DNA from: Promethearchaeia archaeon | GTDB lineage: Archaea > Asgardarchaeota > Lokiarchaeia > Sigyniarchaeales > SOKP01 | Direction: 5' to 3' | Length of the DNA stretch: 64,000 nt | NCBI GenBank assembly: GCA_029856125.1 | Contig: JAHQWJ010000014.1 | Span: 128,001 to 192,000 of the forward strand | Part shown: positions 27,360 to 49,283 of the stretch, one piece after another | Position numbering within the stretch: the first letter of the stretch is position 1 | Layout of the letters: every line of letters starts with the position of its first letter | The notes under the pieces: model-generated | What the model saw: only the letters and a program-made list of their open reading frames with translations | What the model was told of the DNA's origin: nothing | The model's database searches: none | Position numbers and translations under genes: made by a program

Positions 27360-28682
27360 TTAATTGATTTGATAAAAATGTTCTTCAAATTCAGGCTTGC
27401 CTTGATACTTTTGCATGAAGATTAACGGGGCCTTTTCGAGATTCTTAAAAAGATACGAAGGTGCTCTGATTCCTGCTTGCCTTAGAGCGTCTTGTATTCT
27501 ATCAACTTCAGGGGGGCATCCATCAATTGCGATCAATTCTTTGATATTTGGATGGTCCTTTTGCTTATTGATTATGCATTGTCCAAGTAATATTGTTTTA
27601 TTCATCCCCTCAGAAGGTTCCATGATTTTTCCGGTAAGAACTTCTATATTGTCAAAATCCTTACCCTTCCACGCTGATTTAATTGCTACTAGTAAAACTG
27701 CATTGTAAAAACTGCAATAAGTACACATAGTATCATCGTATTTACGATACCTTAGCCCCCCAATACCTGCTTTTGCGTAAGAAAGAGGTAATGTATTATT
27801 ATTTTTGTAGATATAGTCCCATCCATGAGGCACGGCAAGATCTTCTATACTTTCTCCTATAACCTCAATTTCTGATAAATCTACCGGACGATTTCTATCC
27901 TTAGCTGCCTGGACTAAATGGGGAACAGCAGTAGGAGCTATACCTAGTAAACTAGAACCCACCATATCTGCGGAGAGCATGTTATTGGAAGCGACTATAA
28001 TATCGCTTCTATGAGCTTTACCATCAAAAGATGGACCTCGTTCAAGCGTGTAAATCCCGTCAATGATTGTAAGGCCAGGAGGTGCTTTATCTGCAAGGTG
28101 TGACACATTATAATGTAAGGTGTATTTGGGATCGTCACCATGGAACTTTTTACGCGATGGAATATTTATCAAGCCTTTTAGATTTTTTAATCCTAAACTA
28201 ACAACGCATTGTGCGTGAGTTTTAAGAACAGGAACATCAATTAAAAAATCTGAATGAAGCATATCTGCATTCATTTTTGCGGATACCCCTTCTGCTAACT
28301 CTACTTTTTCAAAAGGTCGTTGAAAAATATCGTATACTTTAACACCATATCGTTCCTTAAAAATATTATATCCAAGCTTTTCGAATGCGTCCTTAGCTGT
28401 TTCTCTATCTTTTGGGCTTTCAGTAACTATTCCTTCTCCGATGGTAATGTCGGTTACACCATGTTCTTTTAACAATATTAAAATTTCCTCCATTACGCTC
28501 GAAGTTGTTAGCATACCCCATTTAGGAAAGTCACAATGCCTATTCCAATAAACCAAATTAGGTTTTATGAAAACTTTTGCGTTAGGATCAAGTTTTTCAA
28601 ATCCATTTACAAGTTTGACAGCTTTCCGAACAGAATCTTTTTCCTTTTCATATTTTACTATAGATACTATCGATTTGCTCAT
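27360..28682 (-). CDS. DUF362 Fe-S protein, paralog 1
   Basis: IKPN, PVLKTH, LGLKNLKG, IIDG; C-terminal CTYC...GQC...GCPP. Confidence 0.9.
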   Translation of the reverse strand: MSKSIVSIVKYEKEKDSVRKAVKLVNGFEKLDPNAKVFIKPNLVYWNRHCDFPKWGMLTTSSVMEEILILLKEHGVTDITIGEGIVTESPKDRETAKDAFEKLGYNIFKERYGVKVYDIFQRPFEKVELAEGVSAKMNADMLHSDFLIDVPVLKTHAQCVVSLGLKNLKGLINIPSRKKFHGDDPKYTLHYNVSHLADKAPPGLTIIDGIYTLERGPSFDGKAHRSDIIVASNNMLSADMVGSSLLGIAPTAVPHLVQAAKDRNRPVDLSEIEVIGESIEDLAVPHGWDYIYKNNNTLPLSYAKAGIGGLRYRKYDDTMCTYCSFYNAVLLVAIKSAWKGKDFDNIEVLTGKIMEPSEGMNKTILLGQCIINKQKDHPNIKELIAIDGCPPEVDRIQDALRQAGIRAPSYLFKNLEKAPLIFMQKYQGKPEFEEHFYQIN

Positions 28683-28843: not shown

Positions 28844-30154
28844 CTATTTTAATTTGTAGAATGACTCTTCAAATTCAGATTTACCTTTGTATTTTTGTAA
28901 AAAGATGATGCCCCCGGCATCCTCGTTTCCTTCTTGAAATGTAAGAGGATTAACCTTTATTCCACATATTTCAAAAGCATTTTTAATATCTTCCATTGAA
29001 GGTGGGCACCCTCTAATAGGCACTAGTTCATTGATATTAGGATGATCTCTATTTTTCTTATATTGACATTGACCAACTAGGATTGTTTTATTCATGCCGG
29101 CCGAAGGTTCCATAATTTTTCCTGTTAGAAATTCGATACCACCAAATGTATCCCCATTCCATGCATTTCTTAGTAGTACTAATAATAAACCATTAATCAT
29201 ACTACAGTAGGTACACATGGTGGAGTCATATCGTCTGTATTTTAATCCTTTAAATTGTCTAGTATAGAAAGGAAGCGGTAAATCCCCAGCTTCATTATAT
29301 ATAAACTCCCATTCGTGATGGGAAGCTAAGGCTTCGATTTTTTCTCCGACAACCTCAATCTCTGATAAACTTGTCGATCTATCTTTATCTTTAGCAGCTT
29401 GGACCAAGTGTGGTACATCTGAAGGATCAATACCTAACATTTTTGCACCTACCATATCAGCCGATAAAATATCTTTAGATGCGATTAATACATTTGTTTT
29501 GTGAGCTTTTCCATCCATCGAAGGACCACGTTCTAGCGTATAAATTCCATCAATAAGAGTTAAACACGGAGGAATATTATTTGGAAGTTTTGCAACGTTG
29601 AAGTGGAGGGTTTTTATAGGATCAGCACTATGAAATTTCTTTCGAGATGCAATATTAATAAATCCTTTAAGATTTTTCATCCCCAAACTTACTACTGCTT
29701 GACTATGAGTTTTTAAAGTGGGTAAACTAATAATATAATCAGCGTTCAGCGCATCAGAGGCAAAATTAACAAGAAAATCACATCCCATATCTATTTTTTC
29801 ATATGGTCTATCATTAGTATTAATTAGTTTTACACCAAATCGCTCCTTTAATTTGCTATACCCTAATTTTTTGAAAGCGTCTTGAGCAGCTTCATTACTA
29901 ACAAAGCCCTCACCAATTGTTATGTCGTCAATTCCTTTTTCTTTTAAAAGAGTCACAACATCTTCCATAACCCTGGATGTAGTAATAACGCCCCATTTAG
30001 GATAAGGACCACTGCTCCAATAGACAATATTCGGTTTAATGAATATTTTTGCTTCTTTAGGCAAATCATCAAATAAATTGGATAACTCAACAACCTTACG
30101 TACGGATTCTAGAGGTTCTTCATATTTAACTACAGAAACTAAATTTTTACTCAT
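28844..30154 (-). CDS. DUF362 Fe-S protein, paralog 2
   Basis: Same motifs as 27360-28682; tandem duplicate. Confidence 0.9.
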   Translation of the reverse strand: MSKNLVSVVKYEEPLESVRKVVELSNLFDDLPKEAKIFIKPNIVYWSSGPYPKWGVITTSRVMEDVVTLLKEKGIDDITIGEGFVSNEAAQDAFKKLGYSKLKERFGVKLINTNDRPYEKIDMGCDFLVNFASDALNADYIISLPTLKTHSQAVVSLGMKNLKGFINIASRKKFHSADPIKTLHFNVAKLPNNIPPCLTLIDGIYTLERGPSMDGKAHKTNVLIASKDILSADMVGAKMLGIDPSDVPHLVQAAKDKDRSTSLSEIEVVGEKIEALASHHEWEFIYNEAGDLPLPFYTRQFKGLKYRRYDSTMCTYCSMINGLLLVLLRNAWNGDTFGGIEFLTGKIMEPSAGMNKTILVGQCQYKKNRDHPNINELVPIRGCPPSMEDIKNAFEICGIKVNPLTFQEGNEDAGGIIFLQKYKGKSEFEESFYKLK

Positions 30155-30304: not shown

Positions 30305-33169
30305 TTAGAAATATATCTCAGATCGTCTTGCCATGTATTTAACAAATTCGAAGGAAACGATACAAATTAACGAAATTAAGAAACACACTAGCCAGTCTAA
30401 TCCCGTAAGGAACATAAATCTAAAGTTTAAGCCCCAATCAGCGAGCGTTACTTGGACTCCAGGAATATACATGAGTGCAAGAAACAGTGCAAACAAGAAT
30501 CCAATTAGTAAGTACATGAATCGGGTGCTATCTTCTTTAATACTCATGATTAATGATTTGTTAGGTCTCCTAATTTGCAGCACTAAAAATGACTCGCAGA
30601 TGAAAATAGTCACCATTAACATAGTAAGAGTTTTAGCTTCGTTTAGAGAAATTCCACTTCCATCTGGGAATGTGAGGGGAGAAAACAAATAGGCTTCGTT
30701 TAAATCTCCGAAATTGATAACAGAAACCTCAGGACCCAAAAGTGTCGTGAAATAAACAACGATCATACTAATTGCTAATAAAGCTCCAAATATAAAGAGA
30801 AGAATTATGGTATTTTTTGATAAGATTTCCTCCTCGTCGTGTGGTTTCTGCTTCATCAAATCTTTAGAATTGCGATCGAATGTGAGAATTAAGCCCGGAA
30901 ATATGTGAACGGTTATCGAGAGGAAAATCCATTGGTAATAAAATGCGTCGTCTAAAAAGTAGGGGAAATTGAGAATAACAGATAAAATAAACTGGACTAT
31001 GCCTTCAAAAACATTTATACAGATATAGAAAAATACAACTGCTCTGATGCGAGCAAAAATGCCACGCCCTTGCTCGATACCTGTAACGATCGATGTAAAA
31101 GAATCATCGCTTATTACCATATCGCTCGCTTCCTTCGCAACATCAGTTCCTTGAATCCCCATAGCTATTCCTGCATCTGCCATATTCAAGGCTAGAGCGT
31201 CGTTAACCCCATCTCCGGTCATAGCCACAACTTGATTAGCTTCTTGGTATTTTTCAATTATATCTTGTTTATGCTCTGGAGATACCCTAGCAAACACTTT
31301 TATTCTGCCAAAATCAAAAAATGATTTAACTTTTTTTATTGCTTTTCCTTCTACTACAATTTCATCCTTGTTTTTAATAATAGAGATTTGTTGGGCAATA
31401 GCTTTCGCCGTTGTGGGAGAATCTCCTGTGATCATTACTACATCCACCCCAGCGTTGTGACATTGCTCAATGCTTTGTTTCACACCTTCCCGAGGAGGAT
31501 CATGGATCGTTACAAACCCAATGTATATCATATCTGACTCGCACAACTTTCTGCTTTTCTCGTCTTCTTGTGGAATAGTATCTAGTTTCTTATAACACAA
31601 ACTCAAGATTCTATATCCTTGTCCAGCGTAGATATCCGAAATCTTCAAAATTTTGTCTCTAATTTCGTTAGAAAATTTTAACTCTTGATCTTTATATAAG
31701 ACTTTTTTGCAGAGCGGGATTAATATCTCACTAGCACCTTTAGTAAAAGAATAAAATTTACCCTCTTTTTTATAAACTTTAGTCATTCTTTTAACTTTAG
31801 AATCGAATGGATGCTCTTTAACGTATTCAAAATCTTCTAGGAGATAATCGCCCATCCCCTTTTGAAAAAGAACCATTAAAGCTCCTTCTGTAGGAGAACC
31901 AATTACATTCCAGTTATTGATAGTTTTTCCTGATACTTCAATCTCATTTTTTACCAATGCTGAGTTATTGTTCAAGAAACCTGAAGTTAAAAGCAATTTG
32001 AGTTGAGGATGGTCATCGATGTGTTTCACATATACTGAATTTTTTGGATCGTCGACTAAAATAATTTCTCCGTCAGGACTATAACCACTACCAGAAACAT
32101 TATATGTAGAACCGTTTGTCCATACATGCTGAATCGACATTTGGTTTTTCGTCAAGGTGCCTGTTTTATCTGAGCAAACTACGCTTACTCGCCCTAAACT
32201 ATCTACTGAAGCGAGATTTCTGATGATGACGCCGTGGCGAGCCATAGTTACAACACCCGTTAACAAAATAATTGTTACAAGAAGAGGTATATTGATAGGT
32301 AGTAAATCCATGGCAGAGTTAAGACTCTTGACTATATTTAACTCACCGGTAGCGCCCCAAAGAATCATGAGAATAAGAAACCAAAAACCGATAACGATCA
32401 ACCCTAACCACTTACCAAAATTATTCATTTTTGCTCGAATTGGAATCTCGCTTGTTCCTGCGTCTTCTAAACCTTGCGATATTTTTCCTATTTCGGTATC
32501 TTTACCTGTTTTTACTGCTATTGCCGTTGCATTACCAGTAGCAATAAAGGTTCCGTAATATACTAAATTAAATCGGTTTGCGATAGCTATATCCTCGTTT
32601 TTTATTGCTGCTCCGTCATGAGCTTTTCTAACCGGCTCAGATTCTCCCGTTAAACTGGATTCGTTAACTTCTAGGTTAGAAGATTGAATGATTCTCCCAT
32701 CAGCAGGTATTCGGTCTCCTTGCTTTAGGACTAGTAAATCGCCAGCTACTACATTTTTTGTCGTAATATCCTCCTTTTGACCATCTCTTATTACCGTGGT
32801 TGTTGGTGCCGTCATTTCTCGTAGTGCGTTTAATTTTTTTGTTGCTCTATATTGCTGTATGATGGCAACTACACAATTGAGAGCCACTATGCCTAAAGTT
32901 AGCATGACGAATATTAAATTTCCCTCGCCCATTGTGATTGCTGCTAAAAACAATATTAACGAAGCGAATAGATAAATTACGATTAACCAATTGAATAAAG
33001 GAGCGAGATATATTTTGATAAATCCTTTAGAAGCTTTCGGAATCTCGTTAAATCCGTAAAGTTCAAGCCGTTTTTGGGCTTCCTCACTTGTTAATCCTTT
33101 AGTTGAATTAGTGTTAAACTTTTTGTAGATTTGATCTAACTCAAAATTATAGTATTTGATTTCTTCCAT
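30305..33169 (-). CDS. P-type ATPase, P2A-like scaffold with a non-canonical substrate site (M4 PINI)
   Basis: TGES, DKTGTLT, KGA, MITGD, GDGVND; about 10 TM. Confidence 0.95.
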   Translation of the reverse strand: MEEIKYYNFELDQIYKKFNTNSTKGLTSEEAQKRLELYGFNEIPKASKGFIKIYLAPLFNWLIVIYLFASLILFLAAITMGEGNLIFVMLTLGIVALNCVVAIIQQYRATKKLNALREMTAPTTTVIRDGQKEDITTKNVVAGDLLVLKQGDRIPADGRIIQSSNLEVNESSLTGESEPVRKAHDGAAIKNEDIAIANRFNLVYYGTFIATGNATAIAVKTGKDTEIGKISQGLEDAGTSEIPIRAKMNNFGKWLGLIVIGFWFLILMILWGATGELNIVKSLNSAMDLLPINIPLLVTIILLTGVVTMARHGVIIRNLASVDSLGRVSVVCSDKTGTLTKNQMSIQHVWTNGSTYNVSGSGYSPDGEIILVDDPKNSVYVKHIDDHPQLKLLLTSGFLNNNSALVKNEIEVSGKTINNWNVIGSPTEGALMVLFQKGMGDYLLEDFEYVKEHPFDSKVKRMTKVYKKEGKFYSFTKGASEILIPLCKKVLYKDQELKFSNEIRDKILKISDIYAGQGYRILSLCYKKLDTIPQEDEKSRKLCESDMIYIGFVTIHDPPREGVKQSIEQCHNAGVDVVMITGDSPTTAKAIAQQISIIKNKDEIVVEGKAIKKVKSFFDFGRIKVFARVSPEHKQDIIEKYQEANQVVAMTGDGVNDALALNMADAGIAMGIQGTDVAKEASDMVISDDSFTSIVTGIEQGRGIFARIRAVVFFYICINVFEGIVQFILSVILNFPYFLDDAFYYQWIFLSITVHIFPGLILTFDRNSKDLMKQKPHDEEEILSKNTIILLFIFGALLAISMIVVYFTTLLGPEVSVINFGDLNEAYLFSPLTFPDGSGISLNEAKTLTMLMVTIFICESFLVLQIRRPNKSLIMSIKEDSTRFMYLLIGFLFALFLALMYIPGVQVTLADWGLNFRFMFLTGLDWLVCFLISLICIVSFEFVKYMARRSEIYF

Positions 33170-33345
33170 TTAAATTCTCCCGGGACTTAATCTTAATTTT
33201 GATTTTATGATAAAAAATAATTATAATAAATACACAATAGAAATTCTTGTTTTTATTTTATAGTATTTTGTTAATAAAAATAGTTATTAAAGATAATTTA
33301 AAAAAATAATAGAAATGATTCAAAAATACAATTATCTATATGGAT

Positions 33346-36213
33346 TTAGAAGAGAATATTTTTTCTCCTCGTAATGTATTTAAATATCTCTATTCCTATT
33401 AAGCCAGGTAGCGCCATTAAAATACATATTATCCAGTCGGTACCACTCAAAAAGAGAAAGTTTAATTGTAAACCTAAGCCAAATTCATCGTTTATATAAT
33501 AATTAACGGCATTTGAAAATAAAACGAACAAGACGTGCAAAGCGAGCGTAAATAAGCTAATTACGAGTAACGTTGACGAAAATTCGTTTTTAAGGCTTTT
33601 GAAAAGCGATTTGTTAGGGCGTCTGAATGTCCAGATGAAGGTAGTTTCAACAATGTAAAGCGTGGTAATAAACATAGTCCTTGCTTTTTGTGCCAACAGT
33701 TCGGGTTGTGTTGATCCAACGGGAATATAACTAATTGTAGGGTTAAGATTCCAATCATTTAATGGGACTAAACCTCCTAACGTAAATTGAAGAACTAAAA
33801 CCAAACCAATTCCCATTAACAACGCTTGTATTACCAACATTACCCACATATTCTTGTTTAATAGTTGTTCCTCGTCTCTGGGAGGTTCTTTCATAACATC
33901 TATTGGATGTTTATCAATCACTAAAGCTAAAGCAGGTAAGGAATGAACTATCGCGTATATATAAATATGCTGCCAATTTGAGCTAAACAAAATAAATGAT
34001 GGGACAAACTCATACGCAAAAAAAATAACGGATTCCATTAGATTTAAGCAGATAAAAAAGAATATGATCGTTCGAATTCTAGCAAACAAACCACGACCAA
34101 TTTTTACACCCCTAACTATAGATGTGAAGTTATCGTCGCTTATGACCATATCAGCGGTTTCTTTAGCTACATCAGTTCCCATTATACCCATGGCTATCCC
34201 GGCATTCGCTAATTTTAAAGCTAACGCGTCGTTAATACCGTCTCCCGTCATAGCACAGATGTGATTCTCTGACTGATACTTTTCTATTATTATCTCTTTA
34301 TCTGAAGGATTGACTCGCGCAAATACCGACACTCTATTGAAATCTTTATCGTTTAAATTGTTAATTTCTGAACTTTCTACTATTAAATCCCCTTCATTAT
34401 AAATTCTCATTTGAGCTGCAATAGTTTTGGCTGTTGCTGGATGGTCGCCTGTGATCATTGAAATTTTAATACCGGCTAATTCACATTCCTCTACTGAAGC
34501 TCTCACTCCTGGTTTGGGAGGGTCCAATATCGAAACAAAACCTAAGAAGACAAGATCATTTTCAACTTTTCCTCTTTTAAAATCTTGTTCGCCCTTTATT
34601 TTTCTATAACCAATAGCTAAAGTTCGATATCCTTGGTTCGCTCGGATTTGAATTTTATCGATTAAGAGTTTTTTTAATCTTTCAGTTAATGTTTCTTCTA
34701 CACCGTTTATTTCAATTATACTTGATATGTCTAAGATCCTCTCCGGTGCTCCTTTGGAGAATGCTATAATAATAGAATTATTAGTTTTAAGTTTACATAC
34801 AGTAGTCATTCGTTTAACTTCTGAAGTAAATGAAAACTCCTTTAATATAGAGTATTTATTTTTTATATCATAAGGAATGTATCCTGCCTTTTCAGCTAAC
34901 ACTAATAAAGAAGCCTCTGTTGGCGAGCCTAAAGCTTTTCTTACGGCAATTTCCTTTGATTCTTTCAACTGGACTTTAACATCTTCATACACTAATTTAG
35001 CGTTATTATTTAAGACGCTTGAATCAATGAATTTGATAAATGTAGAATTTTCCTCAAAGCTCATTTTCTTTCCATTTTCGAGAATAATTCCTTCCGGATC
35101 ATATCCTGAACCCGTAACTTGGTATTCGTTGTTATTTATCCAAAATCTTTCAACGGTCATTTCGTTTTTAGTAATGGTTCCAGTCTTATCTGAACAAATT
35201 ACAGATACACGGCCAAGTGATTCGATTGCTGACAAATTTTTTATTATTACTCCACTTTGAGCCATATTAAGTACTCCTGTAACGAGAACGAGCGTTGTTA
35301 GTAAAGGTAGGTTAATAGGCATGATTCCCATTGATATTAAAATAGAATCTATAATCGCTTCAGTTATATTATCACCAAAAAATCGACCTTCTAATCCTAA
35401 AATAGAAAATTTATACACAATTAAGACGATTAAGTAAAGGATAACTATCGTTCCAAGGATATACCCTAACCTATTTAGTTTTCTTGTCAGTGGAATGTCC
35501 TCGATACTTCCCATATCTTTAAGTTGATTTGAAATTTTACCAATCTCAGTATTAAGGCCTGTTCCAGCGACAAGTGCTTTCCCTCTACCAGTATTTATGT
35601 AAGTCCCCATGAACACCATATTGCTTTGTTTCTGAATGGGTAATTCTCTATCTTTTAGTGACTTATTATTTTTTTCTACCGGCTCACTCTCCCCGGTGAG
35701 TGGCGCTTCGTCAATAGTTAAATTGGTTGACTCAATAATTCTCGCATCTGCACCTATTTTATCGCCTTGCTCTAATAAAATAATATCCCCTGGAACTAGT
35801 TCTTTTATAGGAATTTCAAACTGAATTCCATCTCGCAGGACAACCGTTTTTAAAGCGGCAATTTGTCTTAAAGCGTCTAATGCTTTTCGAGCCCTATATT
35901 GTTGAGTTATTACGGTTATTGAATTAATAACTACTACTGTAAAAGTAATGATTGTTGATGTTATATCTCCGAGTATTATAACGATTGTTGCCGAAATAAT
36001 CAGTATTATTATTAAAAAATTGAAAATTGGTGCTAAATAGATTTTCCACAGAGATTTTTTAATTTTTGGTAATTCATTAAAGCCATATTTGATGTATTTT
36101 TTCTCTATTTCAGAAGTTTTCAAACCCTTGTTAGAATCAGTCTGAAACTGAGTAATTAAATCATCTATTGATTGAGAATACGCTATATCAGAACGAGGTT
36201 GGGTTTGATTCAT
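33346..36213 (-). CDS. P-type ATPase, P2A-like scaffold with a non-canonical substrate site (M4 PINL)
   Basis: TGES, DKTGTIT, KGAPE, MITGD, GDGIND; tandem paralog. Confidence 0.95.
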   Translation of the reverse strand: MNQTQPRSDIAYSQSIDDLITQFQTDSNKGLKTSEIEKKYIKYGFNELPKIKKSLWKIYLAPIFNFLIIILIISATIVIILGDITSTIITFTVVVINSITVITQQYRARKALDALRQIAALKTVVLRDGIQFEIPIKELVPGDIILLEQGDKIGADARIIESTNLTIDEAPLTGESEPVEKNNKSLKDRELPIQKQSNMVFMGTYINTGRGKALVAGTGLNTEIGKISNQLKDMGSIEDIPLTRKLNRLGYILGTIVILYLIVLIVYKFSILGLEGRFFGDNITEAIIDSILISMGIMPINLPLLTTLVLVTGVLNMAQSGVIIKNLSAIESLGRVSVICSDKTGTITKNEMTVERFWINNNEYQVTGSGYDPEGIILENGKKMSFEENSTFIKFIDSSVLNNNAKLVYEDVKVQLKESKEIAVRKALGSPTEASLLVLAEKAGYIPYDIKNKYSILKEFSFTSEVKRMTTVCKLKTNNSIIIAFSKGAPERILDISSIIEINGVEETLTERLKKLLIDKIQIRANQGYRTLAIGYRKIKGEQDFKRGKVENDLVFLGFVSILDPPKPGVRASVEECELAGIKISMITGDHPATAKTIAAQMRIYNEGDLIVESSEINNLNDKDFNRVSVFARVNPSDKEIIIEKYQSENHICAMTGDGINDALALKLANAGIAMGIMGTDVAKETADMVISDDNFTSIVRGVKIGRGLFARIRTIIFFFICLNLMESVIFFAYEFVPSFILFSSNWQHIYIYAIVHSLPALALVIDKHPIDVMKEPPRDEEQLLNKNMWVMLVIQALLMGIGLVLVLQFTLGGLVPLNDWNLNPTISYIPVGSTQPELLAQKARTMFITTLYIVETTFIWTFRRPNKSLFKSLKNEFSSTLLVISLFTLALHVLFVLFSNAVNYYINDEFGLGLQLNFLFLSGTDWIICILMALPGLIGIEIFKYITRRKNILF

Positions 36214-36318: not shown

Positions 36319-37272
36319 TTAGAGATTAAATTCGGAAGGATCTCCTAATATAGCAATTAAGACATGAAATTTTTTTCTGATGGTTGTACTCGAAAATCTG
36401 CTTGTTTGTTCAACAATACTTTGAGTAAAAATCTTGCGATTATCTAAAGTCTGTCCAATATAGTAAATTAATCCCGCTGTAAAAGCCTTGTAGTTCAGGT
36501 TTAGGATTTGCTCGTAAGAAATTTTCTGTAAAATTTTAGCTGCTAATAATTGCATTTCCAATTTTAATCTTATGTAATCTGGCTCGCTGGAGAAGTGTTG
36601 TTCAACTCGTTCAAAATTGATATTGTTTAAATCCTTCTGAAATAAAATTTTAATCTTATTTTTTATCTCTTCTTCTAGATTTATCGCGTTTTTATACCCC
36701 TTCAACCTTTTATCTGTTCTTTTAACTTTTAACATCGCATTGTTGAGCATCTTTTTGTTTATCTTATGGCCTAACTCTTTAGATGCTTTGATGAAATCTT
36801 CAATCCTAACATTTGTGGTTTCTTTTATTTCCATCCAAATGATTGCAAGAAAGATAATTACCATATTTTCATATGTCTGTCTATGATATTTGTTATACCG
36901 GAGATAATTGTCTTTTATTTCGTTGTATTTAGCCTTATCAATATTTAGTCCAATACCATAACTTTTGAGCATGCTAATAGTTTTTTTTTGCTCAGTAAAA
37001 CTACTCTGAGAATCCTTAAACCATTTGGACAAAGTTTTAATTTGCTCAAAACGAGCTTTCGTTTTTGGATCCTGAGTAGCTCTTGAGTCACTTATTCTTA
37101 TTTTTCTTTCGTAATCTATTTGGGACTCAGAATAAAAGTCAGGAGACGGAACATTCTCAAAAGCGATTTTATCTTTATCAATTAAACCACAATTTTGACA
37201 AACATAGTATCCCCCTTCCAACTTTAAGTTCTTGTGTTCACATTCAGCTATTTCTTTATTAGTTTTATTCAA
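36319..37272 (-). CDS. Divergent TFIIB/TFB-like protein
   Basis: N-terminal Zn ribbon CEH...CQNCG; C-terminal cyclin repeat with AGLIY and TQSIV...SSTTIRKKF. Confidence 0.75.
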   Translation of the reverse strand: MNKTNKEIAECEHKNLKLEGGYYVCQNCGLIDKDKIAFENVPSPDFYSESQIDYERKIRISDSRATQDPKTKARFEQIKTLSKWFKDSQSSFTEQKKTISMLKSYGIGLNIDKAKYNEIKDNYLRYNKYHRQTYENMVIIFLAIIWMEIKETTNVRIEDFIKASKELGHKINKKMLNNAMLKVKRTDKRLKGYKNAINLEEEIKNKIKILFQKDLNNINFERVEQHFSSEPDYIRLKLEMQLLAAKILQKISYEQILNLNYKAFTAGLIYYIGQTLDNRKIFTQSIVEQTSRFSSTTIRKKFHVLIAILGDPSEFNL

Positions 37273-38097: not shown

Positions 38098-39030
38098 CTA
38101 GAGCTTACCTTTGATTTGTTTAGCTCTACTACGTAAAGTGACTTCTGTTATTTTAGCGATATTTGCTACGAGAGATTGTGTTCTTCTTATCGCTCCATCT
38201 TTTGCTGCGATATAGATACACGCTGCAGCTAATCCTTTCGGATCCTTCCCTGTTCGCTGTAAACCATTCTTAGATGCAGTTCTTAACATGTCGATTGCAA
38301 CTTTTTGGATTTTCATAGGAAGTTCCAATTCGTTACCAAACCGAAAGACTAAACTCTCAGCGGTGATAGGCTGATATCTAAGACCTAAACTGGGAAGTAC
38401 TTCTCTTATAATCATCGCTAGACTCCTGTGTACAGTTCTTCTAGGAGTTAACGAAGCTTCACAAACCTCGTCTAATAACCGTGGAAAATCGTGTACTCTA
38501 ATCGCGGCGTATAAAGATCCCGCTATAAATCCATTAATCGACCTTCCCATTGTTAATTTTTTCTTAGCTACTATGCTATAAATCTTCCACGCAGTTTCTG
38601 AAATGTATTCAGGAATATTTAGTTTTGAGGTAAGCATTTTCAATTTGGGTTTAGCTTCCCAAAAGTTACGTTCTATACTTGAAATAAGAGAATTTTGAAT
38701 TTTTGATAATCTTGAAAACAAAGCTTGCTCCTTTGGACCTATTGACTTACCCTTTGAATCGGTTTTCGTGGTTGGGAGCATTGTCCTCGGTCCAAAATCC
38801 CGCCACCTCGGCTCAGTCCTTCGGCGGTTCTGTATCTCTTCCACAGTGTAAGCTCTTCGCTCATTGCCAACATAGGTTCTTTCTGCGATCATGCCGCAAT
38901 TTAAGCAAACTTTATTCCCATCGCGTTCTTCTATTGATGGGGTTGAACAACACTCGATATTTTTATTGGGCAAATTATCTTGATCATCATTATCTTTAGA
39001 AATTAATCGATCACGGTAATTGCTATTCAT
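38098..39030 (-). CDS. tfb: Transcription initiation factor IIB
   Basis: Zn ribbon CC...CLNCG, ERN, GRS...AGSLYAAIR, PR.LDEV, GKDPKGLAAACIY, TQ...ITEVTLR. Confidence 0.95.
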   Translation of the reverse strand: MNSNYRDRLISKDNDDQDNLPNKNIECCSTPSIEERDGNKVCLNCGMIAERTYVGNERRAYTVEEIQNRRRTEPRWRDFGPRTMLPTTKTDSKGKSIGPKEQALFSRLSKIQNSLISSIERNFWEAKPKLKMLTSKLNIPEYISETAWKIYSIVAKKKLTMGRSINGFIAGSLYAAIRVHDFPRLLDEVCEASLTPRRTVHRSLAMIIREVLPSLGLRYQPITAESLVFRFGNELELPMKIQKVAIDMLRTASKNGLQRTGKDPKGLAAACIYIAAKDGAIRRTQSLVANIAKITEVTLRSRAKQIKGKL

Positions 39031-48182: not shown

Positions 48183-48726
48183 ATATTTGGATAAAGATTA
48201 TTATAAATAAGGGGGTTAAGAAATCCGCTAACGATGTCACCATTGGAATTAAGAAATTATTTGGGTCTTTTCCTTTTCTAAATATTAATATTGAACCCAT
48301 AAATAAAAATACGAACATTAGTCCAAATAAAATCATAATAGTAATAATAAAAATTGATATAATCAACAAGGGATTAACAATTTGTATACCAGTTACGCTT
48401 CCCAATATGTATCCTAGACTTATCAATGCAGCAAGGCTTAATAGAATTGTTATAAATAAGCCATAAAAATCCTGTTTTAATCGATCAGAGACTTGAATTT
48501 TTGGAGACAACGTACCTATATACAGATGAGAGGTAAGACGAGATACCAGAACAGTTGATATATCGCCTATTAAAGAATTTAAGGACGGTAAAACTAATAA
48601 TATAATAGGAAAACTAGACAACACTATTTCATTATTAGAGAGAAGTGTCCCAGAAAAGAGTCCCATAACCGAACTAATTAGAACTACTATTACTGATTCC
48701 TTGAAGATTTTTTTAAAGTAATCCAA
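48175..48726 (-). CDS. mgtE: MgtE-family membrane domain (half transporter 2)
   Basis: SRLTSHL; GKDPNNFLIPMVTSLAD. Confidence 0.85.
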   Translation of the reverse strand: MDYFKKIFKESVIVVLISSVMGLFSGTLLSNNEIVLSSFPIILLVLPSLNSLIGDISTVLVSRLTSHLYIGTLSPKIQVSDRLKQDFYGLFITILLSLAALISLGYILGSVTGIQIVNPLLIISIFIITIMILFGLMFVFLFMGSILIFRKGKDPNNFLIPMVTSLADFLTPLFIIIFIQIFV

Positions 48727-48728
48727 AT

Positions 48729-49283
48729 TTATGGCACCCCCAACATAATTATTGTTAAATAGAAGCAGATAACTGTAAAAAAGTCGTCAATCGCTGTCAT
48801 TACAGGATTTACGATGTTGTTTGGATCGAGCCCGCGCTTAAACGCTAAAAAATTTAAGAACGTAGAACATGGAATTGAAATCGCTAAGGTTAATGCGATT
48901 GAAATAATTGGAATTACGATTAATAAACCAAGATGAAAAATATAAAGTCTAATAAGTAGAAGATTAATGAGGATGCTGAAAACACCAATCGCTAACGCTG
49001 TTAATAACGATAGAGATAATGTAGCTAATACATTTTCAAACCATGATTTCTTATTAAATTCACCGATAATGAAATCTCTTGAAGTTCGGGCGATGAATGG
49101 TCCACTTAAATTACCCCTTAGAGAAAGTAAAGCCGGTATAATTAGAATTAATAGAAGAAAGCTCTTAAATGAGACTATTAAAAGAGAGAGTACGATTCCC
49201 GCAAGGATATCGCCCACAATGGAAACCATTTCAGATGGAAACGTTTCTTTAACGATTCTACCTTTAGTATCTCGAGCTTCCAT
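48729..49283 (-). CDS. mgtE: MgtE-family membrane domain (half transporter 1)
   Basis: P.LL.LRGN; GLDPNNIVNPVMTAIDD. Confidence 0.85.
   Translation of the reverse strand: MEARDTKGRIVKETFPSEMVSIVGDILAGIVLSLLIVSFKSFLLLILIIPALLSLRGNLSGPFIARTSRDFIIGEFNKKSWFENVLATLSLSLLTALAIGVFSILINLLLIRLYIFHLGLLIVIPIISIALTLAISIPCSTFLNFLAFKRGLDPNNIVNPVMTAIDDFFTVICFYLTIIMLGVP

What the first reader, a model, noticed from the sequence alone, without database searches (positions are those of the whole stretch)
30305..36213. Tandem P-type ATPases with a P4-flippase-like M4 motif and a rebuilt, non-Ca2+ binding site
Seen: both paralogs have an intact P2A-type catalytic core (TGES, DKTGT, KGA, TGD, GDGxND), but M4 reads PINI (32288-32299) and PINL (35308-35319) instead of PEGL. 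In a manual alignment to SERCA, M6 N796/T799/D800 become S/V/H in one paralog and Y/V/H in the other. M5 N768/E771 (INVFE, LNLME) and M8 E908 are kept. Known: E309, N796 and D800 are SERCA Ca2+ ligands. Eukaryotic P4 lipid flippases have PISL in M4, with Ile replacing E309, and DGET in the A domain. Inference: these pumps should not bind Ca2+ in the SERCA way. The same substitutions in two otherwise diverged paralogs suggest selection for a new substrate, either a lipid (a proto-flippase intermediate between P2 and P4) or another ion using the His. The TGES motif and the lack of a CDC50-like neighbour mean they are not true P4 enzymes.
Basis: partly seen in the sequence, partly recalled or inferred. 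Interest (0 to 1): 0.85.

Follow-up and report, generated by a model that had tools for sequence, protein, structure and literature searches.

The report
Asgard P-type pumps, rebuilt ion site
These two neighbouring genes encode intact ATP-driven membrane pumps from an apparently undescribed Asgard-archaeal sister branch of the calcium/sodium pump class; the calcium site is replaced by a fixed Asn/Glu/His/Glu pocket, so they probably move another small ion and are not ancestors of lipid flippases.

Summary
Both ORFs (30305-33169 and 33346-36213, minus strand, 41% identical) keep TGES, DKTGT, KGA, TGD and GDGxND. M4 reads PINI/PINL, M6 has S..VH / Y..VH, and M5 N..E and the M8 Glu are kept.

These changes define a clade. 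In 169 members, the Asn after M4 Pro-Ile, N768, E771, His at D800 and E908 are each at least 97% conserved. The clade scores E<=1e-285 in 131 of 201 sampled Asgard species genomes, in 12 of 27 families. It often sits beside a canonical PEGL pump, and the tandem pair recurs across the window's family.

The flippase idea fails every P4 test: TGES instead of DGET, no P4 linker insert, N..E instead of K-N in M5, and 109 bits against a 431-bit cut-off. Trees with only three animal P4 sequences pulled P4 towards this clade. With ten diverse P4 sequences the clade is sister to canonical P2 pumps (96/98), and it joined P4 in 0-0.4% of bootstrap trees.

A hydrophobic residue after the M4 proline is also the P3A proton-pump state. 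The Glu(M5)/His(M6) pair mirrors P3A's Arg/Asp pair.

Cargo is unknown. My pick is H+ or Na+, and a transition metal is the main rival. This scan has reported the same family at least 18 times on other Asgard genomes.

The parts
30305..33169 (-). P-type ATPase paralog 1 (P0001, 954 aa), the PINI type
   Evidence: ORF and translation. Pfam Cation_ATPase_N, E1-E2_ATPase, Cation_ATPase, Hydrolase and Cation_ATPase_C. AF2 model has pLDDT 80 and pTM 0.71, with M4 unwound at residues 288-292.
33346..36213 (-). P-type ATPase paralog 2 (P0002, 955 aa), the PINL type
   Evidence: ORF and translation. Same Pfam architecture. 41% identical to paralog 1. It groups with Helarchaeota-labelled clusters P0137-P0139, so the duplication is old.
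32288..32299 (-). M4 motif P291-I-N-I of paralog 1 (SERCA P308-E309-G310-L311)
35308..35319 (-). M4 motif P299-I-N-L of paralog 2
32639..32650 (-). A-domain TGES (T174-S177) of paralog 1; P4 pumps have DGET here
32156..32170 (-). Phosphorylation motif DKTGT (D334-T338) of paralog 1, 43 residues after the M4 proline as in P2 pumps
31004..31015 (-). M5 N719-V-F-E722 of paralog 1 (SERCA N768..E771 kept)
30905..30919 (-). M6 S751-I-T-V-H755 of paralog 1 (SERCA N796..T799-D800 become S..V-H)
30593..30595 (-). M8 E859 of paralog 1 (SERCA E908 kept)
33943..33945 (-). M6 H757 of paralog 2 (SERCA D800 position)
34033..34044 (-). M5 N724-L-M-E727 of paralog 2
33646..33648 (-). M8 E856 of paralog 2
33170..33345 (-). 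176-bp AT-rich spacer between the paralogs, with T-runs just after the stop of paralog 2
   Evidence: Sequence read; no Rfam match. That the two genes are transcribed separately is an inference.

Best explanation
Both genes encode working P-type ATPases of an apparently undescribed, mainly Asgard-archaeal family. This family is the sister group of the canonical PEGL-type P2 pumps (Ca2+, Na+/K+). The ATP-driven engine is standard: E1/E2 cycle, Asp phosphorylation at DKTGT and TGES-catalysed dephosphorylation. The transport pocket is rebuilt. SERCA site II is filled in (E309 to Ile/Leu, N796 not conserved, D800 to His). One pocket remains between M4, M5, M6 and M8, lined by the fixed Asn after M4 Pro-Ile, N768, E771, His and E908. 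I infer one small cation per cycle, and not Ca2+ bound in the SERCA way. My pick for the cargo is a monovalent cation, H+ or Na+ pumped out, possibly in exchange for K+. The Glu(M5)/His(M6) pair would act as a charge-swapped counterpart of the Arg(M5)/Asp(M6) pair of P3A proton pumps. Those pumps also carry an aliphatic residue after the M4 proline. What is shown: the anatomy, its conservation, the phylogeny and the distribution. What is inferred: a single site, the identity of the ion and the direction of transport. I give about 0.8 to a small inorganic cation other than Ca2+ and about 0.4 to the H+/Na+ pick; the confidence field carries the latter.
For: Full P2-type domain set, and TIGR01494 at 277-300 bits against a cut-off of 62. 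Best NCBIfam scores go to P2A (425-477 bits) and P2D (395-440), then P3A (337-339), P5 (230-254) and P4 (109). The fold matches P2/P3 pumps best: PfATP4 Z 31.7, SERCA2 28.6, AHA2 28.5, SPCA1 28.2, LMCA1 27.8. Identity is 27-30% to P2 against 17-19% to P4. The five polar pocket residues are at least 97% conserved in 169 members. The clade is monophyletic at 100/100 and sister to canonical P2 at 96/98. It was found at E<=1e-285 in 131 of 201 Asgard genomes and 12 of 27 families. It coexists with canonical PEGL+Asp pumps: family f1 genomes show 3-4 hits at E<=1e-100 but only 2 at E<=1e-285, and G099 L122 is canonical. That argues for a non-redundant cargo. This genome also has two CPC-type P1B metal pumps. 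It has no TrkH, Kup, KdpB, two-TM K+ channel domain or CPA Na+/H+ exchanger, with controls positive in 5-13 of 14 genomes. So monovalent-cation homeostasis has no assigned carrier. True archaeal P3A pumps read P-V-A-(L/Q)-P in M4. In the shared alignment they have Arg on the E771 column and Asp on the His column.
Against: No experiment exists. A proton pump would not need five conserved polar residues. A His ligand is unusual for Na+ or K+ and typical for transition metals. The missing K+ and Na+ carriers do not complement the clade across the phylum. TrkH is missing everywhere (1 of 201), K+ channel domains are rare in families with and without the clade (22 of 201), and CPA exchangers are common in several families that carry it. 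The Arg/Asp versus Glu/His column match rests on one MAFFT alignment of divergent M5 helices. I could not read coordinates of the AF2 model, so the pocket geometry is assumed from SERCA homology.
Confidence: 0.4

Rival explanations
1. A divalent metal pump, for Mn2+, Fe2+, Zn2+, Ni2+ or Co2+ and less likely Mg2+. The ion would bind at a His + 2 Glu + 2 Asn site. The pump would serve as a housekeeping exporter in metal-rich anoxic sediments, and the two paralogs could take different metals.
For: The His is near-invariant beside two Glu and two Asn, a ligand set typical of borderline metal ions (my own knowledge). All five residues are conserved, which fits a coordinated metal better than a proton. 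The related P2A pump SPCA1 is among the best sequence matches; that it carries Mn2+ is my own knowledge.
Against: The genome already has two P1B (CPC) metal pumps. No metal-binding tail, His-rich stretch, metal regulator or metal riboswitch is nearby. The very high conservation (71-92% identity among the 120 closest homologues) fits a bulk-ion housekeeping role at least as well.
Confidence: 0.3
2. A lipid flippase or proto-flippase: the Ile after the M4 proline acts as a hydrophobic gate as in P4 pumps, and the substrate is an archaeal lipid head group.
For: M4 P-I-N-(I/L) resembles P4 P-I-S-L. With only three animal P4 sequences, trees drew P4 to this clade. The held tree was 40.7 lnL better than a short free search, UFBoot was 80 without P5A, and AU p was 0.42 with P5A. 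Under LG+F+G4 the constrained tree in the best-sampled set is still not formally rejected (delta lnL 13.3, p-AU 0.089).
Against: The A domain has TGES, not DGET. The M4-to-Asp spacing is 43 as in P2, against 53 in P4. M5 is N..E, not K-N, and M8 keeps Glu. Pfam finds Cation_ATPase_N/C, not PhoLip_ATPase_N/C. TIGR01652 scores 109 bits against a cut-off of 431. With 10 diverse P4 sequences the clade joins P2 at 96/98, P4 in 0.0% and P4+P5A in 0.4% of 1000 bootstrap trees. The same hydrophobic M4 position occurs in P3A proton pumps.
Confidence: 0.06
3. Still a Ca2+ pump, as annotated, using a single modified site I.
For: Public annotation calls these proteins Ca2+-transporting ATPase. N768, E771 and E908 of site I are kept. 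This genome shows no canonical PEGL pump.
Against: The single-site Ca2+ pumps I know of (LMCA1, SPCA, PMCA) keep site II with the M4 Glu and the M6 Asp (my own knowledge). Here both are lost in every member. Sister genomes carry a canonical PEGL+Asp pump as well. No P2A equivalog cut-off is reached.
Confidence: 0.07

Closest known systems
P2A Ca2+-ATPases (Listeria LMCA1 6zhf/9euq, SPCA1/PMR1, SERCA)
   Same: Best sequence matches in the PDB (E 1e-119 to 1e-94) and in NCBIfam. Same domain set and ten-helix layout. Same 43-residue M4-to-Asp spacing. M5 N..E and M8 Glu are kept. The two groups are sisters in the tree (96/98).
   Different: M4 P-E-G-L becomes P-I-N-I/L. M6 N..T-D becomes x..x-H. 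All equivalog cut-offs are missed (425-477 bits against 703-798). The clade lies outside the canonical group, which holds together at 92/90.
P3A plasma-membrane H+-ATPases (AHA2 5ksd; archaeal P3A loci L129-L132)
   Same: An aliphatic residue follows the M4 proline (P-V-A-L/Q-P). A single acid/base pair bridges M5 and M6. The fold match is high (Z 28.5).
   Different: The pair is charge-swapped: Glu/His here, Arg/Asp in P3A. TIGR01647 scores 337-339 bits against 615.5. Identity is 22%. The clade grouped with P3A in 0.1% of bootstrap trees. This clade keeps N768 and E908 and adds an M4 Asn.
P2D / PfATP4-type Na+ efflux pumps
   Same: Best structural match (9n10, Z 31.7, rmsd 3.4 A over 731 residues). 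Second-best NCBIfam model for paralog 1 (TIGR01523, 440 bits).
   Different: The score is below the cut-off of 645. I had no P2D sequence in the tree, so the relationship was not tested.
P4 lipid flippases (ATP8A1, Drs2, Dnf1, Neo1)
   Same: Ile after the M4 proline and no acidic residue in M4.
   Different: DGET against TGES. A 10-residue linker insert in P4. K-N against N..E in M5. Different N- and C-terminal Pfam families. 17-19% identity. P4 groups with P5A, far from this clade.
P6 / CtpE-type pumps (Mycobacterium)
   Same: A precedent for a P2-like pump whose M6 Asp is replaced and whose transport behaviour differs (PMC10654040; PMC5615198).
   Different: CtpE keeps PEGL and has Ile, not His, in M6. 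I did not place it in the tree.

Membership tests
P-type ATPase superfamily (HAD-IC, TIGR01494) | DKTGT phosphorylation site, TGES, TGD, GDGxND and a model score over the cut-off | tested here: met
   277-300 bits against a cut-off of 62.3. The motifs were read.
P2A Ca2+-ATPase (SERCA/PMR1 equivalogs) | NCBIfam equivalog cut-off (TIGR01116 703.4; TIGR01522 798.3) | tested here: not met
   424.7-440.2 bits and 439.8-477.5 bits.
P2A Ca2+-ATPase (SERCA/PMR1 equivalogs) | M4 P-E-G-L Glu (E309) and M6 Asn/Asp (N796, D800) as Ca2+ ligands | tested here: not met
   Ile/Leu at E309. S, Y or other residues at N796. His at D800 in 164 of 165 members.
P2A Ca2+-ATPase (SERCA/PMR1 equivalogs) | M5 N768/E771 and M8 E908 | tested here: met
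   N in 164, E in 166 of 166, and E908 in 162 of about 165 members.
P2 class in the broad sense | Cation_ATPase_N and Cation_ATPase_C domains, and grouping with P2 pumps in a tree that includes P1B, P3A, P4 and P5A | tested here: met
   Pfam hits. The clade plus canonical P2 form one group at UFBoot 96 / SH-aLRT 98. The clade is sister to the PEGL pumps, not nested within them.
P4 lipid flippase | DGET (Asp-Gly-Glu-Thr) in the A domain | tested here: not met
   TGES in both paralogs and in 163-170 of 171 aligned rows. All 40 fetched P4 ORFs have LDGE(T/S).
P4 lipid flippase | M4 P-(I/V/T/S/C)-S motif | tested here: not met
   The hydrophobic P+1 residue is shared, but P+2 is Asn in 166 of 169 members, against Ser (Cys in 3) in all 40 P4 ORFs.
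P4 lipid flippase | P4-specific insert between M4 and the P domain | tested here: not met
   The Pro-to-Asp spacing is 43, as in P2 and P5A; in P4 it is 53. The insert is described in PMC11460456.
P4 lipid flippase | Family model TIGR01652 and Pfam PhoLip_ATPase_N/C | tested here: not met
   109 bits against a cut-off of 431.25. There are no PhoLip_ATPase hits.
P4 lipid flippase | Phylogenetic grouping with P4 | tested here: not met
   0.0% of 1000 bootstrap trees with P4 and 0.4% with P4+P5A. AU under LG+F+G4 gives p 0.089, which disfavours but does not formally reject it.
P4 lipid flippase | Lipid-dependent dephosphorylation and lipid transport; a CDC50 partner in P4A | not testable with these tools
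   No CDC50-like neighbour was found, but P4B pumps need none.
P3A H+-ATPase | TIGR01647 cut-off, M6 Asp proton acceptor and M5 Arg | tested here: not met
   337-339 bits against 615.5. His sits on the Asp column and Glu on the Arg column. The aliphatic residue after the M4 Pro is shared.

The most novel reading that the evidence does not exclude
The Glu(M5)/His(M6) pair is an independent, charge-swapped reinvention of the Arg/Asp proton-pumping device of P3A ATPases. On this reading, Loki-, Thor- and Hel-type Asgard archaea energise or de-salt their cell membrane with a primary P-type H+ (or Na+) pump. That is how eukaryotic plasma membranes work, and most prokaryotes do not do this.
Probability: 0.2. 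Interest if true: 0.85.

Novelty: new variant of a known kind. Interest (0 to 1): 0.58.

Why it matters
1. These proteins are annotated as Ca2+-ATPases. An Asgard transportome study read them as support for eukaryote-like Ca2+ signalling (PMC7997004). For this clade that inference is unsafe.
2. The clade offers a new, sharply conserved ion-pocket design in the best-understood pump family, and it can be tested directly by biochemistry and cryo-EM.
3. Sampled Asgard genomes lack the usual K+ uptake systems, and the window's family mostly lacks CPA Na+/H+ exchangers. These pumps are therefore candidates for basic ion homeostasis or membrane energisation in the closest archaeal relatives of eukaryotes.
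4. The tempting story of an Asgard origin of lipid flippases is tested here and not supported. The analysis also shows that a sparse P4 sample produces it as a long-branch artefact.

Tried and rejected
It returned only canonical PEGL pumps at 28-36% identity and said nothing about distribution.
- My first phylum count (192 of 201 at E<=1e-100) was wrong. The clade profile also scores canonical pumps at 700-905 bits. Reading the motifs in 10 other families showed PEGL+Asp. The recount at E<=1e-285 gave 131 of 201.
- P4 affinity: three analyses with three animal ATP8A sequences leaned towards P4 plus this clade. I rejected this after adding 9 diverse P4 ORFs from metagenomes.
- The AU test under the mixture model did not finish in the time allowed. 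The LG+F+G4 result is given instead.
The same holds for Asgard families without the clade, so there is no complementarity.
- No riboswitch or other Rfam match lies around the genes.
- No paper on this clade turned up in five literature searches (also 97).
- The AF2 model's coordinates are not exposed, so distances within the pocket were not measured.
Only the returned database proteins, named by their sources, were used.
Full report
**What is there.** Two ORFs lie head to tail on the minus strand: 33346-36213 (955 aa, upstream) and 30305-33169 (954 aa). A 176-bp AT-rich spacer separates them. They are 41% identical over their whole length. Both carry the full P2-type domain set: Cation_ATPase_N, E1-E2_ATPase, the N domain, the HAD P domain and Cation_ATPase_C. 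The catalytic motifs LTGES, SDKTGT, KGA, ITGD and TGDGxNDA are intact in both. The organism is an Asgard archaeon of the Lokiarchaeia type. The closest homologues carry Lokiarchaeota or Promethearchaeota names, and the window lies in a 3.69-Mb assembly that is 99% complete.

PINI sits at 32288-32299 and PINL at 35308-35319. HMMER aligns the Ile with the Glu of the Listeria LMCA1 P-E-A-L motif. It aligns the M6 stretch S..VH with N..ND. Paralog 1 has N719/E722 in M5, S751/V754/H755 in M6 and E859 in M8. Paralog 2 has N724/E727, Y753/V756/H757 and E856.

**The pocket is a fixed clade signature.** A search of 1.84 billion representative proteins found about 35 clusters at 50% identity with the same signature. 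Below them the canonical PEGL pumps begin abruptly. Conservation across 169 members:

| Position (SERCA numbering) | Conserved residue | Count |
|---|---|---|
| M4 P+1 (E309) | I, L, V, F or W | all members |
| M4 P+2 (G310) | Asn | 166 |
| M5 N768 | Asn | 164 |
| M5 E771 | Glu | 166 of 166 |
| M6 D800 | His | 164 of 165 |
| M8 E908 | Glu | 162 |
| M6 N796 | not conserved | - |

**Distribution.** My first count was inflated because the clade profile also scores canonical pumps at 700-905 bits. I found this by reading motifs in ten other Asgard families, all of which have PEGL plus Asp. True members score at least 1186 bits.
- At E<=1e-285 the clade is present in 131 of 201 sampled Asgard species genomes and in 65 of 85 high-quality ones.
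- It occurs in 12 of 27 families and was not found in the other 15.
- Named members are Loki/Promethearchaeota, Thor, Hel, Hod, Hermod and an Odin MAG. One MAG is labelled Korarchaeota.
- The adjacent pair recurs in at least 24 genomes, mostly of the window's family (coordinates). Paralog 2 groups with Helarchaeota clusters, so the duplication is old.
- Most genomes of the family also hold a canonical PEGL pump. This assembly does not. Its only other P-type ATPases are two CPC-type P1B metal pumps.

Coexistence with a canonical Ca-type pump argues that the cargo differs.

**Which class it belongs to.**
- NCBIfam ranks the proteins P2A (425-477 bits), P2D (395-440), P2C/P2B, P3A (337-339), P5 (230-254) and P4 (109). 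No equivalog cut-off is reached.
- An AlphaFold2 model (pLDDT 80, pTM 0.71) has M4 unwound at the proline.
- The model matches PfATP4 (Z 31.7), SERCA2 (28.6), AHA2 (28.5), SPCA1 (28.2), LMCA1 (27.8) and MgtA (27.4) ahead of the P4 pumps Neo1 (26.6) and ATP8A1 (24.5). Identity is 27-30% to P2 pumps, 22-23% to P3 and 17-19% to P4.

**The flippase question.** I fetched real P4 and P5A sequences using short baits, plus archaeal P3A pumps that pass the TIGR01647 cut-off.
- With only three animal ATP8A sequences the result was unstable.
  - In a 65-row set, a tree holding P4 with this clade was 40.7 lnL better than a short free search.
  - With P5A added, the ML tree joined the clade to P2 (74%), but the alternative was not rejected (AU p 0.42).
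  - Without P5A, P4 sat next to the clade (UFBoot 80, SH-aLRT 24).
- I then fetched 40 diverse P4 ORFs from metagenomes. They are 28-55% identical to ATP8A1, and all have LDGE(T/S) and P-x-(S/C) in M4.
- I rebuilt the tree with ten P4 sequences, which halved the P4 stem length.
- The careful tree (39 rows, 816 columns, LG+C20 PMSF) is (P1B,((P4,P5A) 92/81,(P3A,(clade,P2) 96/98) 81/49)).
- The clade joins P4 in 0.0%, P4+P5A in 0.4% and P3A in 0.1% of 1000 bootstrap trees.
- Under LG+F+G4 the constrained tree is 13.3 lnL worse (p-AU 0.089). It is disfavoured but not formally rejected. The mixture-model AU test did not finish.

The earlier attraction was a sparse-sampling, long-branch artefact.

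Molecular markers agree with the tree:

| Marker | This clade | P4 pumps |
|---|---|---|
| A-domain motif | TGES | DGET |
| M4 Pro to DKTG Asp spacing | 43 (as in P2 and P5A) | 53 |
| M5 | N..E | K-N |
| Terminal Pfam domains | Cation_ATPase_N/C | PhoLip_ATPase_N/C |

A hydrophobic residue after the M4 proline is not unique to P4. Five archaeal P3A proton pumps read P-V-A-(L/Q)-P. In the shared alignment they carry Arg on the E771 column and Asp on the column of the clade's His. The clade's Glu(M5)/His(M6) pair is therefore a charge-swapped counterpart of the P3A Arg/Asp device. A review describes that device as the proton acceptor plus a built-in counter-charge (PMC10654040). This column match depends on one alignment of divergent helices.

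**How it most likely works.**
- Shown: an intact engine, a conserved rebuilt pocket, sisterhood to P2 pumps and coexistence with Ca-type pumps.
- Inferred: site II is closed and one small cation binds among Asn(M4), N768, E771, His and E908.
- My pick, at about 0.4, is H+ or Na+ pumped out, perhaps against K+.
  - The reasons are the P3A-like features and the housekeeping-like prevalence and conservation.
  - In addition, this genome has no TrkH, Kup, Kdp, two-TM K+ channel domain or CPA Na+/H+ exchanger, while MgtE is present.
- The absence argument is weak. TrkH is missing from the whole phylum sample (1 of 201). K+ channel domains are rare with or without the clade (22 of 201). CPA exchangers are common in several families that carry it. 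They are, however, rare in the two families that mostly hold two or more copies (f1 6 of 40, f2 0 of 3).
- The main rival, at about 0.3, is a transition-metal pump. The His and the full set of five conserved ligands fit a coordinated metal better than a proton.
- Ca2+ gets about 0.07 and lipid about 0.06.

**Novelty.** Five literature searches found no description of this clade. A recent review states that P4 pumps are unique to eukaryotes and expects further prokaryotic families (PMC10654040). The Asgard transportome paper files these pumps under a putative Ca2+-ATPase (PMC7997004). This scan has reported the same family at least 18 times on other Asgard genomes, mostly with the same reading. 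I class the finding as a new variant of a known kind: an unnamed sister family of P2 pumps with a new pocket.

**Limits.**
- No biochemistry exists.
- The model's coordinates were not readable.
- P2B, P2D, P3B, P5B and P6 were not in the tree.
- Distribution outside Asgard archaea was not surveyed systematically.

Noticed in passing
window 27360-28682 and 28844-30154 (minus strand): Two tandem DUF362 paralogs (440 and 436 aa) lie directly downstream of the tandem ATPases on the same strand. The locus therefore holds two successive duplicated gene pairs. Any functional link is unknown.
   Followed up: no
window 36319-37272 (minus strand) and 38098-39030 (minus strand): A 317-aa ORF with an N-terminal C..C/C..C zinc-ribbon-like start and no Pfam hit sits just upstream of the pumps, close to a TFIIB-repeat gene. 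It may be a divergent TFB paralog.
   Followed up: no
window 48199-49139 (G000:C18:176199-177139, minus strand): Two adjacent short ORFs (203 and 185 aa) each hold an MgtE domain. They are the only recognised Mg2+ carrier found in this genome; CorA was not found.
   Followed up: partly
Asgard phylum sample: TrkH was found in 1 of 201 genomes and the two-TM K+ channel domain in 22 of 201. How most Asgard archaea take up K+ is not explained by the usual systems. CPA Na+/H+ exchangers are present in 117 of 201 genomes but in only 6 of 40 in the window's family.
   Followed up: partly
proteins P0165, P0186, P0193, P0213, P0223, P0264: These proteins are 1400-1700 residues long, and a P2-like ATPase fills the C-terminal half. 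The first DKTG in some of them is preceded by a CPx-like M4 (for example GCPAAV), which suggests two P-type ATPases fused in one chain.
   Followed up: no
protein P0135: A clade member labelled Korarchaeota sits on a 156-kb contig and nests among Asgard members in the tree. This is either horizontal transfer or a mis-binned contig.
   Followed up: no
locus L016 (Methanobacterium MAG): A 929-aa pump has an Na+/K+-ATPase-like M4 (VPEGLLPTVT) next to a true P3A gene on the same contig. This fits the reported P2C-like pumps of methanogens.
   Followed up: no
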